A stretch of DNA of 64,000 bases from the sequence record MG770228.1, one strand, 5' to 3'. The position numbers and the translations under genes were made by a program. The notes under the pieces are model-generated. The model was not told the origin of the DNA, made no database searches, and was given only the letters and a program-made list of their open reading frames with translations. Every line of letters starts with the position of its first letter. Within the stretch, counting starts at the first letter, position 1. Shown one piece after another: positions 716 to 1,876 of this stretch. The DNA is from Escherichia phage PMBT57.

Positions 716-790
716 GATGGTGTAGCTCAGTGGTAGAGCAGTTGGCTGTTAACCAACTGGTCGATGGTTCGAATCCATCCACCATCGCCA
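716..790 (+). tRNA. tRNA-Asn (anticodon GTT)
   Basis: Manual cloverleaf: acceptor gatggtg/caccatc, D-stem gctc/gagc, anticodon stem gttgg/ccaac with loop ctGTTaa, T-arm gatgg-ttcgaat-ccatc, encoded CCA. Confidence 0.8.
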
Positions 791-795
791 AATTT

Positions 796-885
796 GGAAG
801 GTTGTCAGAGAGGCCGATTGTACCTGACTTGAAATCAGGAGGCGCAGAGATGCACCCGAAGGTTCGAATCCTTCACCTTCCACCA
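796..885 (+). tRNA. tRNA-Ser (anticodon TGA), class II with long variable arm
   Basis: Acceptor ggaaggt/accttcc, anticodon stem cctga/tcagg with loop ctTGAaa, long variable arm, T-arm gaagg-ttcgaat-ccttc, encoded CCA; D-arm resembles E. coli tRNA-Ser. Confidence 0.7.
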
Positions 886-889
886 AATT

Positions 890-965
890 GCTGGTTTAGC
901 TCAGTTGGTAGAGCAATTGCCTTGTAAGCAATGGGTCAATGGTTCAAGTCCATTAACCAGCACCA
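890..965 (+). tRNA. tRNA-Thr (anticodon TGT)
   Basis: Acceptor gctggtt/aaccagc, D-stem gctc/gagc, anticodon stem attgc/gcaat with loop ctTGTaa, T-arm aatgg-ttcaagt-ccatt, encoded CCA. Confidence 0.8.
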
Positions 966-974
966 ATACAGGTT

Positions 975-1052
975 ATTAGTGAACACACTATAGAACCTCC
1001 CAGCTTCCTCCAGATGTACGGCAATACATTAGCTGGTAGTGTGTTCACTGAT
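975..1052 (+). other. long inverted repeat hairpin (13 bp perfect, about 16 bp with one G-U) directly after tRNA-Thr; candidate dsRNA processing element
   Basis: tagtgaacacact (977-989) pairs with agtgtgttcacta (1038-1050); inner stem ccagct/agctgg. Confidence 0.5.
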
Positions 1053-1132
1053 AGGTTGTACTATCACAGTCCAGACAATATCTGCGTGACTTAAAAAACA
1101 GATGGAGCCAGGTGGAATCCCTGGCAATTAAT

Positions 1133-1198
1133 TCCGGTGTAGGTACTAGTGTTGTGCACGACATGAGTGTTCTGGTTCGAGTCCAGACGCCGGAACCA
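1133..1198 (+). pseudogene. tRNA-like remnant: acceptor and T-arm present, no canonical D or anticodon arm
   Basis: Acceptor tccggtg/cgccgga (one G-U), T-arm tctgg-ttcgagt-ccaga, discriminator plus CCA; only 31 nt between acceptor and T-stem. Confidence 0.3.
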
Positions 1199-1309
1199 AT
1201 TTGAAAGAACTCTTATTTTGGTTACCGCAAAAGAAGTGAAAAATGTTGTGGAAAACTACTTCCCAATTAGGTTCGAATCCTAAACCAGAGTAAGAGTTCT
1301 TTCGAATTG
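1197..1309 (+). other. long inverted repeat hairpin (13 bp perfect, 19 bp with one G-U) enclosing a tRNA T-arm-like motif; candidate processing element or tRNA remnant
   Basis: gaaagaactctta (1203-1215) pairs with taagagttctttc (1291-1303); loop contains ttagg-ttcgaat-cctaa, same T-loop as the Asn/Ser/Pro tRNAs here. Confidence 0.5.
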
Positions 1310-1317
1310 AAGATTTA

Positions 1318-1394
1318 CAGGATATAGCTCAGTTTGGTAGAGCGTCTGCTTTGGGAGCAGAGTGTCGTAGGTTCGAATCCTGCTATCCTGACCA
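1318..1394 (+). tRNA. tRNA-Pro (anticodon TGG)
   Basis: Acceptor caggata/tatcctg, D-stem gctc/gagc, anticodon stem tctgc/gcaga with loop ttTGGga, T-arm gtagg-ttcgaat-cctgc, encoded CCA. Confidence 0.8.
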
Positions 1395-1396
1395 AA

Positions 1397-1480
1397 TTAG
1401 TGCTCTGGTATATTACTTTTAACCCCTAGGTTATGCCACAGTAATACAACAGATTGGGTCATCTGAAACCAGAGCACTAA
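1397..1480 (+). other. long inverted repeat hairpin (13 bp perfect stem) directly after tRNA-Pro
   Basis: ttagtgctctggt (1397-1409) pairs with accagagcactaa (1468-1480). Confidence 0.5.
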
Positions 1481-1842
1481 CCTAATGTGTGGGATGTAAC
1501 AGTTAAATCCAGTTGCCGGAAGTGCAATTCTAGATACGCTGCCAATGTGTGAACGGTAAGGCTGTACAGGACTCGGACTCCCATCCCACCTCCTTATTTG
1601 AACCAGGTATGAACGGCTTACTTAGTATTAACTGCATAGGGGTATGTTAGGGATACTTAGGTGGTAAGCAGTTGGTAAGAATCCAACATGGTTCATTCCC
1701 TATTAGCAGTAACATAGTCCTGAGTACGTGTGCTCTAAAGACAATATTGGTGAGACAGTCCAATAGCTGCTAAATTAAATTCGTCCATTCCTCTTGGATG
1801 TGTAGCGAGTGAAGGTAACACTTAAAAATCCATGACCCATAG

Positions 1843-1876
1843 AAGCCTCCAGGATTAACTGGAGGCTTTTTTATTT
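1843..1876 (+). terminator. intrinsic terminator closing the tRNA island
   Basis: 10-bp stem aagcctccag/ctggaggctt, 6-nt loop, then TTTTTT. Confidence 0.7.

What the first reader, a model, noticed from the sequence alone, without database searches (positions are those of the whole stretch)
716..1876. tRNA island with four tRNAs interleaved with long perfect inverted repeats
Four canonical tRNAs (Asn-GTT, Ser-TGA, Thr-TGT, Pro-TGG) sit in a 1.2 kb non-coding block ended by a strong terminator. Between and after them are three hairpins with 13-bp perfect stems (up to about 19 bp with G-U pairs): 977-1050, 1203-1303 and 1397-1480. The second stem abuts the 3' end of the upstream tRNA-like element and stops 9 nt before tRNA-Pro. 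Stems this long are of the size RNase III acts on, so they may be processing sites in a polycistronic tRNA precursor, or stable small RNAs.
Basis: seen in the sequence. Interest (0 to 1): 0.55.

Follow-up and report, generated by a model that had tools for sequence, protein, structure and literature searches.

The report
Phage N4 tRNA operon with hairpin RNAs
The gene-free block of this N4-type coliphage encodes four tRNAs plus a string of unannotated structured RNAs; one long hairpin encloses a tRNA-like RNA conserved across unrelated phage families, much like the still-unexplained "species 1/2" RNAs of phage T4.

Summary
The window is an Enquatrovirus: 99.6% identical to VEc25 and 98.7% to N4. 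It has four canonical tRNAs, a 66-nt degenerate tRNA-like element, a strong terminator and three long hairpins. With G-U pairs the stems are 25, 27 and 15 bp. These are the only long non-palindromic inverted repeats in the 64 kb.

Hairpin 2 (1197-1309) is a real RNA family. Eleven distinct sequences come from four phage clades, including T4-like Yersinia phages. They keep a 20-27 bp stem through compensatory changes (15 pairs changed on both sides; 90% paired against 37-50% in slid controls). The interior is nearly invariant and holds a T-arm stacked on the stem. G7C has the hairpin with no canonical tRNA nearby, so it is not only a tRNA spacer.

Each hairpin starts 0-2 nt after an encoded CCA. 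Each carries a 7/8 match to the Krinke-Wulff RNase III half-consensus. The RNase III reading is therefore plausible but untested. Hairpins 1 and 3 have few or no diverged relatives.

The remaining non-coding sequence is also a mosaic of tRNA-shaped modules shared with other phages. No function is known. I rate it a new variant of a known kind, of moderate interest.

The parts
716..790 (+). tRNA-Asn (GTT), CCA encoded
   Evidence: ARAGORN; Rfam tRNA 77.5 bits
796..885 (+). tRNA-Ser (TGA), long variable arm, CCA encoded
   Evidence: ARAGORN; Rfam 50.5 bits
890..965 (+). tRNA-Thr (TGT), CCA encoded
   Evidence: ARAGORN; Rfam 75.8 bits
967..1060 (+). Hairpin 1. 25-bp stem (967-991/1036-1060, one G.G mismatch) around a 44-nt interior. 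Starts 2 nt after the CCA of tRNA-Thr. Half-consensus match UUAGUGAACAC at 976.
   Evidence: Fold -41 kcal/mol, z -6.1. Repeat scans. Found only in Enquatrovirus. The one substitution in N4 turns U.G into U-A. RNase III motif.
1066..1126 (+). Module M2a: a two-hairpin RNA motif (AGUC..GACU around CAGA..UCUG; GCCAGG-UGGAAUC-CCUGGC)
   Evidence: Conserved at 85-97% in Gamaleyavirus and in non-N4 Klebsiella, Shigella and Salmonella phages, and in 9 E. coli chromosomes (the one examined, L077, lies between phage terminase and portal genes). Compensatory changes in both hairpins. No Rfam hit.
1133..1198 (+). Degenerate tRNA-like element (66 nt): 7-bp acceptor UCCGGUG/CGCCGGA, a long central arm with a 4-nt loop, T-arm UCUGG-UUCGAGU-CCAGA, and ACCA at the 3' end. 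No D-arm or anticodon loop.
   Evidence: Sequence and fold. Annotated tRNA-Undet in phage Jura and in SPSP and AL25 (feature names under the match). Not called by ARAGORN or Rfam. 95.6% identical in PBM-3, where changes keep the pairs.
1197..1309 (+). Hairpin 2, a conserved tRNA-like RNA inside a long stalk. 27-bp stem 1197-1223/1283-1309; junction ACCGCAAAA 1224-1232; inner hairpin 1233-1238/1257-1262 with an 18-nt conserved loop; linker 1263-1267; T-arm UAGG-UUCGAAU-CCUA 1268-1282 stacked on the 3' strand of the stem.
   Evidence: Fold -46.3 kcal/mol, z -9.1. Homologues in four phage clades. Covariation. Covariance model scores 103-131 bits on the + strand against 22-33 on the - strand. RNase III half-consensus 7/8 at 1204 and 8/8 at 1291.
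1318..1394 (+). tRNA-Pro (TGG), CCA encoded
   Evidence: ARAGORN; Rfam 68.9 bits
1397..1480 (+). Hairpin 3. 13-bp perfect stem (15 bp with one mismatch, per the scan) closing a three-way junction. Starts 2 nt after the CCA of tRNA-Pro. Half-consensus match UUAGUGCUCUG at 1397.
   Evidence: Fold -30.3 kcal/mol, z -5.2. Homologue at 92% in phage Pollock, starting right after tRNA-Leu. Its only stem change is G-C to G-U.
1489..1589 (+). Module M3: a structured RNA closed by GUGGGAUG/CAUCCCAC. It is a discrete insertion relative to Pollock.
   Evidence: The interior is 100% identical in PBM-3, but the closing stem is replaced by UUGAGGU/ACCUCAA followed by A and CCA. A homologue in the rV5-like phage KaOmega sits between tRNA-Glu and tRNA-Asp and also ends in ACCA.
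1599..1695 (+). Module M4: tRNA-shaped RNA with closing stem UGAACCA/UGGUUCA and a T-arm-like hairpin GUUGG-UAAGAAU-CCAAC (1671-1687)
   Evidence: Inverted repeat I20. 82% homologue in Pollock directly after the HP3 homologue, with a compensatory GCUGG/CCAGC change. Fold z -2.7.
1703..1832 (+). Module M5: a 71-nt tRNA-sized element 1703-1773 (closing stem UUAGCAG/CUGCUAA; hairpin 1745-1750/1760-1765) plus a conserved tail
   Evidence: Homologues in G7C, PBM-3 and Moonfish. Two compensatory U-A to C-G changes in PBM-3. Fold.
1841..1876 (+). Intrinsic terminator that ends the island
   Evidence: 12-bp G+C-rich stem plus U-run. Annotated as a terminator in phage Jura.

Best explanation
Positions 565-1895 form one + strand transcription unit of an N4-type phage. 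It is a polycistronic array of four tRNAs interleaved with non-tRNA structured RNAs, ended by an intrinsic terminator. It is organised like the T4 tRNA operon, which also carries two stable RNAs of unknown function. The three inverted repeats are RNA helices, not DNA features. Each sits directly after a CCA-ending tRNA or tRNA-like element and acts as a processing stalk. Host RNase III probably cuts the duplex. That cut would free the 3' trailer of the upstream tRNA for exonucleolytic trimming back to CCA, separate the next tRNA's leader for RNase P, and excise the enclosed RNA. This is the way rRNAs are excised from their stalks. At least the RNA enclosed by hairpin 2 is a gene in its own right. 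It is a D-arm-less tRNA-like RNA: a T-arm stacked on the terminal helix, plus a conserved hairpin and loop. It is likely to accumulate as a stable small RNA and to be recognised by tRNA-binding factors. Shown here: the structures, their strand, the covariation, the family distribution and the motif enrichment. Inferred: co-transcription, RNase III cleavage, stability and any trans function.
For: All tRNAs and modules lie on the + strand between gp47 and gp48, with one terminator. The hairpins are strongly non-random and unique in the 64 kb. HP2 covariation: 37 pairs, 90.3% paired against 37-50% when partners are slid, 15 pairs changed on both sides, 0 of 500 shuffles reaching the score. Many U-G pairs and a 126-bit against 33-bit strand asymmetry point to RNA on the + strand. 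The HP2 interior is nearly invariant across Enquatrovirus, Gamaleyavirus, Humphriesvirinae and T4-like Tegunavirus, while the stem sequence changes. HP2 is present in G7C without canonical tRNAs. Hairpins begin 0-2 nt after an encoded CCA here and in Pollock. In KaOmega a 20-bp hairpin bridges tRNA-Gln and tRNA-His. Each hairpin has a 7/8 RNase III half-consensus match (HP2 3' arm 8/8), and the predicted cuts give 2-nt 3' overhangs. Chance of such a match is about 0.03-0.065 per hairpin. Eleven of 15 island hairpins have a match against 1.3 expected. The consensus is quoted in PMC5141509. An 11-bp minimum and a preference for about 22 bp are given in PMC1540722. T4 precedents: an approximately 1.75-kb precursor of eight tRNAs plus species I and II RNAs (PMC2330249), and RNase III involvement in T4 tRNA maturation (PMC4810235). 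T4 rnaC folds with a T-arm next to its terminal stem, like HP2.
Against: No RNA-seq, northern or cleavage data were available, so transcription, processing and stability are inferred. The Krinke-Wulff consensus is weak. The 15 hairpins tested are partly homologous, so the enrichment is overstated. The shared motif GCUCUUU also resembles boxA. HP3 has only 13-15 bp. HP2 gives two alternative cleavage registers. The AAUU that follows most of the encoded CCA ends would also suit RNase E, so RNase III may not be needed. HP1 has no diverged homologue and HP3 has only one, so their interiors have no comparative support. The HP2 model does not detect T4 rnaC or rnaD, so the T4 parallel is architectural and not shown homology. 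Transcription here is expected from N4 RNA polymerase II (my own knowledge), and no promoter was identified.
Confidence: 0.55

Rival explanations
1. The hairpins are purely cis-acting parts of the tRNA precursor. They would be processing signals (RNase III or another nuclease), folding insulators that keep neighbouring tRNAs from mispairing, or exonuclease barriers. The excised pieces would be degraded and have no function of their own.
For: Every hairpin abuts a CCA end. The stems carry RNase III-like motifs. HP1 is genus-specific, and the HP3 interior shows non-compensated changes in Pollock. A similar inter-tRNA hairpin occurs in KaOmega.
Against: The HP2 interior is the most conserved part. 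It is invariant over about 60 nt in four clades while the stem drifts. HP2 occurs in G7C with no canonical tRNA within 2.5 kb. In Tegunavirus it lies between ORFs, about 250-470 nt from the nearest tRNAs. A spacer would not need a T-arm.
Confidence: 0.22
2. The hairpins and the other modules are selfish or decaying DNA. They would be tRNA-derived cassettes or MITE-like inverted-repeat elements, shuffled between phage tRNA islands by homing endonucleases and recombination at conserved T-arm/CCA sequences. They would bring no benefit to the phage.
For: The modules have a mosaic presence and absence. M3 is a clean insertion relative to Pollock. HP2 is present in G7C but absent in PBM-3. The same outer stem carries three different interiors in Pylas-type HP2, PBM-3 and Pollock. 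An M3 interior 100% identical between genera sits in different closing stems. An HNH endonuclease gene lies in the G7C island. SegB recognises GGTTCRANTCC plus CCAR in tRNA genes (PMC2330249).
Against: Structure-preserving covariation and invariant loops indicate purifying selection at the RNA level. G-U pairs occur on one strand only. No target-site duplications were seen at the M3 boundaries. Mobility and function are not mutually exclusive.
Confidence: 0.13
3. The inverted repeats act at the DNA level, as cruciforms or hairpins serving as promoters, replication origins or recombination sites.
For: N4 is known for hairpin promoters used by its virion RNA polymerase (my own knowledge). Covariation alone cannot tell DNA pairing from RNA pairing.
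Against: N4 promoter hairpins have 5-7-bp stems and 3-nt loops (my own knowledge). Here the stems are 13-27 bp with 44-59-nt structured interiors. Several pairs are G-U, which would be A-C on the other strand. The model is strongly strand-asymmetric. The elements always share the orientation of the tRNAs.
Confidence: 0.03

Closest known systems
Phage T4 tRNA operon with its stable RNAs species 1 (rnaC, 139 nt) and species 2 (rnaD, 119 nt)
   Same: Small non-tRNA RNAs are encoded among phage tRNA genes, on the same strand and in one terminated unit. rnaC folds with a UUCGAAU T-arm directly next to the 3' strand of its terminal stem, as HP2 does. RNase III is reported to take part in T4 tRNA maturation (PMC4810235). 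The function of the T4 RNAs is still unknown (PMC3014915, PMC9697503). A homing endonuclease sits in the cluster (segB in T4, an HNH gene in G7C).
   Different: No detectable sequence or covariance-model homology to rnaC or rnaD. The T4 RNAs have short, imperfect terminal stems. HP1-HP3 have 13-27-bp stalks and no CCA end. All N4 tRNAs encode CCA.
RNase III processing stalks of rRNA precursors and phage T7/lambda RNase III sites
   Same: A long duplex formed by flanking sequences encloses a structured RNA. Stems are at least 22 bp in HP1 and HP2. They match the WNAGWGNNCWU half-consensus with a geometry that yields 2-nt 3' overhangs.
   Different: Cleavage has not been shown. The enclosed RNAs are 44-59 nt rather than rRNAs. 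HP3 is shorter than typical substrates. The proximal-box and distal-box rules could not be scored decisively.
Bacterial and phage Y RNAs (YrlA, RF02553)
   Same: About 100-nt RNAs whose 5' and 3' ends form a long stem and whose interior mimics tRNA with a T-arm. Some are made in polycistronic precursors with tRNAs (PMC4201824).
   Different: Rfam YrlA scores are 15-19.5 bits against a gathering score of 69. The Ro60-binding motif GNCGAAN0-1G is absent by inspection. No rsr gene is among the annotated neighbours. In HP2 the T-arm stacks on the terminal stem (normal tRNA topology), whereas YrlA is permuted.
Canonical tRNA (RF00005) and tRNA minihelices
   Same: In HP2, in the 1133-1198 element and in M4, a T-arm-like 4-5-bp stem with a 7-nt loop lies directly next to the 3' strand of the terminal helix (the UUCGAAU-type T-loop consensus holds in HP2 and 1133-1198, not in M4, whose loop is UAAGAAU). 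M5 has a similar 6-bp hairpin with a 9-nt loop in that position. The 1133-1198 element also has an ACCA end.
   Different: No D-arm, no 7-nt anticodon loop, and no hit from ARAGORN or the Rfam tRNA model even at E<=10. The HP2 'acceptor' is 27 bp with no free 3' end.

Membership tests
tRNA (RF00005) | Cloverleaf scoring above the Rfam gathering score, with an anticodon called by ARAGORN | tested here: met
   For 716-790, 796-885, 890-965 and 1318-1394: 50.5-77.5 bits against 29. Anticodons GTT, TGA, TGT and TGG.
tRNA (RF00005) | The same criterion applied to 1133-1198 and to hairpin 2 | tested here: not met
   No tRNA hit at E<=10 for either and no ARAGORN call. Only the acceptor/T-arm half is tRNA-like.
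E. coli RNase III substrate | Continuous dsRNA: at least 11 bp from the cut, with full contacts at about 22 bp | tested here: met
   HP1 is 25 bp with one mismatch and HP2 is 27 bp. The criterion is from PMC1540722. HP3, at 13-15 bp, meets only the 11-bp minimum.
E. coli RNase III substrate | Match to the weak consensus WNAGWGNNCWUNNN^N on the arms | tested here: met
   7/8 at 976, 1204 and 1397, and 8/8 at 1291. Background is 0.0028 per position. Eleven of 15 island hairpins match against 1.3 expected. The consensus is weak and the hairpins are partly related.
E. coli RNase III substrate | No inhibitory base pairs in the proximal and distal boxes | tested here: inconclusive
   Hand mapping shows consensus-like proximal boxes (C-G, U-A, U-A). 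The distal box is non-consensus in one HP2 register. The true register is unknown.
E. coli RNase III substrate | Cleavage in vivo or in vitro that depends on rnc | not testable with these tools
   No expression or cleavage data were accessible.
T4-type tRNA-operon stable RNAs (rnaC, rnaD) | Encoded within a phage tRNA cluster, on the same strand, before the cluster terminator | tested here: met
   The T4 organisation is described in PMC2330249.
T4-type tRNA-operon stable RNAs (rnaC, rnaD) | Sequence or structure homology to rnaC or rnaD | tested here: not met
   blastn of the island against the T4 locus matches only the tRNAs. The HP2 covariance model gives no hit in the T4 locus at E<=10.
T4-type tRNA-operon stable RNAs (rnaC, rnaD) | Accumulates as a stable RNA in infected cells | not testable with these tools
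   Needs a northern blot or small-RNA sequencing.
Y RNA / YrlA (RF02553) | Rfam score at or above gathering (69 bits) | tested here: not met
   Best hits are 15-19.5 bits. They span a T-arm plus the next tRNA's D-arm.
Y RNA / YrlA (RF02553) | Ro60-binding motif GNCGAAN0-1G in the terminal stem, and an adjacent rsr (Ro60) gene | tested here: not met
   The motif is absent from the aligned stems and junction, by inspection of the alignment. The neighbours are gp46, gp47, gp48, gp49 and vRNAP. The feature definitions are from PMC4201824.
Intrinsic terminator | G+C-rich hairpin followed by a U-run | tested here: met
   1841-1870 plus UUAUUU. By contrast HP1, HP2 and HP3 are not followed by U-runs.
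MITE-like mobile DNA | Terminal inverted repeats with target-site duplication and multiple dispersed copies | tested here: not met
   Each hairpin is single-copy in the window. No duplication is seen at the M3 insertion boundaries relative to Pollock. Presence/absence polymorphism does exist.

The most novel reading that the evidence does not exclude
Hairpin 2 and its look-alikes (a long stalk enclosing a T-arm RNA, as in Pylas L009 2240-2335) would define a new class of phage small RNAs. They would be RNase III-excised, D-arm-less tRNA mimics, moved horizontally between unrelated phage families through tRNA islands. They would act in trans as decoys or inhibitors of host factors that recognise the tRNA acceptor/T-arm and elbow, such as tRNA-targeting defence nucleases, RNase P or modification enzymes. 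If so, they would also hint at the long-unknown role of T4 RNAC and RNAD.
Probability: 0.18. Interest if true: 0.75.

Novelty: new variant of a known kind. Interest (0 to 1): 0.55.

Why it matters
N4 is a classical model phage, yet its GenBank record annotates nothing in this 1.3-kb block. Here the block resolves into four tRNAs and at least eight further conserved RNA elements. One of them, hairpin 2, is an RNA family with strong covariation. It is shared by podoviruses of three Schitoviridae lineages and by T4-like myoviruses, and it is absent from Rfam. If the stalks are RNase III sites, the island gives a compact, genetically tractable system for studying how polycistronic tRNA precursors are dismantled. 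It would also help ask what tRNA-operon 'passenger' RNAs do, a question left open for the T4 species 1 and 2 RNAs for about fifty years. The cassette-like exchange of stems and interiors between phage families also bears on how homing endonucleases remodel tRNA islands.

Tried and rejected
Rfam at the gathering and E<=10 thresholds finds no family for any hairpin or module. The only hits are noise: miRNA models, the S4 leader and YrlA at 15-19.5 bits.

The HP2 covariance model does not detect HP1, HP3, T4 rnaC or rnaD, or anything in PBM-3 or KaOmega. The three hairpins are therefore not detectably one family.

Exact-seed scans for more HP2 members were run on IMG/VR, JGI metagenomes and GTDB genomes. 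They returned only the same phage clades plus chance hits, which failed the folding or model check. Seeds from the HP1 and HP3 interiors gave only N4 and Pollock, or 15-mer chance hits.

A 16-codon ORF inside HP2 (ATG 1245 to TAA 1295) was rejected. It is cut to 7 codons in TG1 and shifted by a 2-nt deletion in G7C (reading).

An antisense target for the conserved HP2 loop within the window was not found: no match beyond chance.

No sigma-70 promoter was found for the island.

The hairpins are not intrinsic terminators, because none is followed by a U-run.

Host mimicry was checked against E. coli genomes. They contain only the M2a motif; in the one genome examined it lies in a prophage-like locus.

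Y RNA membership was rejected (see the membership test).

The literature searches found no description of these N4 elements in the accessible library.
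Full report
IDENTITY AND SETTING. The island (560-1900) is 99.6% identical to Escherichia phage VEc25 and 98.7% to phage N4 (EF056009 32296-33636). It lies between the gp47 homologue plus a small ORF (400-564) and gp48 (1896-2267). The 3,506-codon virion RNA polymerase gene follows on the opposite strand. The original N4 record annotates nothing in this block. Later records annotate three to five tRNAs there, or in some cases only hypothetical proteins.

THE OBSERVATION.
- ARAGORN and Rfam agree on tRNA-Asn, tRNA-Ser, tRNA-Thr and tRNA-Pro. 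All four have an encoded CCA, followed by AAUU (Asn, Ser, Pro) or AUAC (Thr).
- A fifth, 66-nt element (1133-1198) has a 7-bp acceptor stem, a UUCGAGU T-arm and an ACCA end, but no D-arm or anticodon loop. tRNAscan-SE users annotated it 'tRNA-Undet'. ARAGORN and Rfam do not call it.
- The three hairpins fold far better than shuffled sequence, with z scores of -6.1, -9.1 and -5.2.
- With G-U pairs the stems are 25, 27 and 15 bp.
- In the whole 64-kb window they are the only inverted repeats with an 11-nt exact seed and arms within 150 nt, apart from two short palindromes.
- The terminator at 1841-1870 is confirmed.

HAIRPIN 2 IS A CONSERVED RNA FAMILY. blastn finds its core in several groups (taxonomy):
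- G7C and Moonfish (Gamaleyavirus-like);
- Pylas, KpCHEMY26, FSL SP-076 and FSL SP-058 (Humphriesvirinae);
- the T4-like Yersinia phages TG1 and phiR1-RT (Straboviridae, Tegunavirus).
Pattern scans added two metagenomic Humphriesvirinae-like contigs.

In an alignment of 11 distinct sequences the interior is almost invariant. This covers the junction UACCGNGAAAG, the hairpin GRAGUG/UACUYC with its loop AAAAAUGUU..AAAC, the linker, and the T-arm UAGG-UUYRAMU-CCUA. The sequence of the 20-27-bp closing stem changes throughout.

On the structure I specified, 90.3% of cells pair, against 37-50% when partners are slid by 1-3 columns. Fifteen pairs change on both sides: 14 in the long stem and 1 in the inner hairpin. 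None of 500 shuffles reaches the covariation score.

Many pairs are U-G. A covariance model scores 103-131 bits on the + strand but only 22-33 bits on the - strand. The structure is therefore RNA, on the same strand as the tRNAs.

The T-arm is continuous with the 3' strand of the long stem, which is the tRNA topology. The molecule reads as a D-arm-less tRNA-like RNA with a 27-bp 'acceptor'.

G7C carries HP2 although neither ARAGORN nor Rfam finds a tRNA in the 5.1-kb locus. In TG1 it lies between two ORFs, roughly 250-470 nt from the nearest tRNAs. A role only as an inter-tRNA spacer does not explain this.

HAIRPINS 1 AND 3.
- HP1 is found only in Enquatrovirus. Its single substitution in N4 converts a U.G pair to U-A.
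- HP3 has one diverged homologue, 92% identical, in phage Pollock. There it starts immediately after tRNA-Leu. ARAGORN places Pollock's tRNAs on the same strand, contrary to the record's annotation.
- The only stem change in Pollock's HP3 is G-C to G-U. One inner helix keeps pairing through G-U and another acquires mismatches.
Their structures are therefore thermodynamically strong, but comparative support is thin.

IS RNASE III PLAUSIBLE?
- Position: all three hairpins begin 0-2 nt after an encoded CCA (965|967, 1198|1197, 1394|1397). In KaOmega a 20-bp hairpin bridges the CCA of tRNA-Gln and the 5' end of tRNA-His.
- Length: HP1 and HP2 exceed the approximately 22 bp needed for full RNase III contacts. 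HP3 exceeds only the 11-bp minimum (PMC1540722).
- Motif: the arms of the long hairpins in these islands share a URAGWR..CUY / CUCUUU motif. Against the Krinke-Wulff half-consensus WNAGWGNNCWU (quoted in PMC5141509), matches of at least 7/8 occur at 0.0028 per position in the window. Each hairpin has one on its 5' arm (976, 1204, 1397), and HP2 has an 8/8 match on its 3' arm (1291). The chance of this is 0.03-0.065 per hairpin.
- Enrichment: among 15 long hairpins from tRNA islands of nine phages, 11 have such a match, against 1.3 expected from shuffled arms.
- Geometry: the predicted cuts leave 2-nt 3' overhangs. One HP2 register would release a 73-nt, tRNA-sized RNA (1218-1290).
- Caveats: the consensus is weak. 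Several of the 15 hairpins are homologous. The motif also resembles boxA. HP2 offers two cleavage registers. No cleavage data exist.
- Precedent: RNase III is reported to participate in T4 tRNA maturation (PMC4810235). The T4 leader hairpin just upstream of tRNA-Gln also carries a 7/8 match.

THE REST OF THE ISLAND. blastn against related loci shows a mosaic of modules.
- M2a (1066-1126) is a two-hairpin motif with compensatory changes. It also occurs in non-N4 Klebsiella, Shigella and Salmonella phages and in 9 E. coli chromosomes; the one examined (L077) holds it in a prophage-like gap between terminase and portal genes. In the three non-N4 loci read, it is followed by a 20-bp hairpin, CACAACAGG.AAGAGCA...UGCUCUUUCCGUUGUGG.
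- M3 (1489-1589) has an interior 100% identical in PBM-3, but a different closing stem that there ends in A-CCA. An rV5-like phage carries a homologue between two tRNAs. M3 is a clean insertion relative to Pollock.
- M4 and M5 are tRNA-sized. Each has a 7-bp closing stem and a hairpin next to its 3' strand, T-arm-like in M4, and each has compensatory changes.
- The same outer stem, CUAUCARUGAGU/ACUCUUUGAUAG, encloses three different interiors in Pylas-type HP2, PBM-3 and Pollock.
This cassette-like exchange fits homing-endonuclease-driven conversion. SegB recognises GGTTCRANTCC plus CCAR in tRNA genes (PMC2330249). G7C has an HNH endonuclease gene in its island.

COMPARISON WITH KNOWN SYSTEMS.
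- The closest analogue is the T4 tRNA operon. It is an approximately 1.75-kb precursor of eight tRNAs and the species I and II RNAs (PMC2330249), whose roles remain unknown (PMC3014915, PMC9697503). T4 rnaC folds with a T-arm beside its terminal stem, like HP2. No homology is detectable.
- The stalk-around-an-RNA arrangement resembles rRNA processing stalks.
- Y RNAs share the combination of a terminal long stem and a tRNA-like domain (PMC4201824). However, the Rfam score, the Ro60 motif, rsr linkage and the topology all fail.
- None of the elements is in Rfam. I found no description of them in the searchable literature.

VERDICT. The stems are credible RNase III-type stalks placed to release CCA-ending tRNAs. 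At least hairpin 2 is itself a conserved tRNA-like RNA gene, and the whole block is an operon of tRNAs and tRNA-derived small RNAs. Function is unknown. I rate it a new variant of a known kind, with interest 0.55.

Noticed in passing
window 1066-1126; L026 1501-1640; L027 1501-1640; L077 3001-3140: The M2a motif (two hairpins with compensatory changes) is shared with non-N4 Klebsiella, Shigella and Salmonella phages and with 9 E. coli chromosomes; the one examined (L077) is a prophage-like locus. There it sits in an approximately 860-nt gene-free gap, antisense to the terminase and portal genes. In the three non-N4 loci read (L026, L027, L077) it is followed by a conserved 20-bp hairpin, CACAACAGG.AAGAGCA...UGCUCUUUCCGUUGUGG. 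There is no Rfam match. It may be part of a larger uncharacterised phage ncRNA.
   Followed up: partly
window 1489-1589; L003 2915-3016; L028 1995-2100: M3 is a tRNA-cluster-associated RNA present in N4-like phages and, by blastn, in rV5-like and T4-like phages (only the rV5-like KaOmega locus was read). Its interior is 100% identical between N4 and PBM-3. The closing stem is swapped and ends in ACCA in PBM-3 and KaOmega, but in CUCC in this window.
   Followed up: partly
window 1599-1695 and 1703-1773: M4 and M5 are tRNA-sized. Each has a 7-bp closing stem and a hairpin next to its 3' strand (T-arm-like in M4), with compensatory changes in Pollock and PBM-3. They look like further tRNA-derived RNAs that tRNA finders miss.
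   Followed up: partly
L003 2158-2249; L011 3006-3110; L009 2492-2602: The same outer stem, CUAUCARUGAGU/ACUCUUUGAUAG with a conserved U.U mismatch, encloses three unrelated interiors in PBM-3, Pollock and Pylas-type HP2. PBM-3 and the Pylas type also share the 3' flank UUUUCGUAAGCGAUUAUGCGG. Stems and interiors appear to be exchanged as cassettes.
   Followed up: partly
L009 2029-2140 and 2240-2335: Pylas has two more long hairpins flanked by CACACAACAG..CGUUGUGG. The second encloses a T-arm (GCGG-UUCGAUU-CCGC) next to its 3' strand, the same architecture as hairpin 2 but a different sequence.
   Followed up: no
window 1239-1256 with 1272-1278 (and TG1, L004): There is a possible tertiary pair between the large conserved loop and the T-loop of HP2. 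N4-type sequences have GUGG with T-loop UUCGAAU. TG1 has GCGA with UUUGAAU, so a G-to-A change accompanies C56-to-U. This is a single event and therefore anecdotal.
   Followed up: no
window 572-603: A hairpin, GAGGCGACUGG...CCAGUCGCUUC, lies directly after the small ORF 400-564 (a 54-codon ORF whose product looks hydrophobic by eye; not analysed). Hairpins in the corresponding position of the PBM-3, G7C and Moonfish loci have different sequences (homology not checked). It may be the end of the upstream transcription unit.
   Followed up: no
L001 1501-1790 (phage Jura): Jura carries a 127-bp tandem duplication of the island leader, corresponding to window positions of about 533-660, upstream of tRNA-Asn.
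   Followed up: yes
L011 2171-2500 (Pollock); L010 (FSL SP-076): There are annotation problems in public records. Pollock's four tRNAs are annotated on the wrong strand. The FSL SP-076 tRNA coordinates are offset by about 1 kb from where ARAGORN finds the genes.
   Followed up: partly
L006 about 4040-4075, minus strand (T4, just upstream of tRNA-Gln): The T4 leader has an 11-bp hairpin, CAAGGGUUCU-UGUU-AGAGAGCCUUUG, with a 7/8 RNase III half-consensus match. From memory, this is where the RNase III cut in the T4 tRNA precursor was mapped. I did not verify that in the accessible literature.
   Followed up: no
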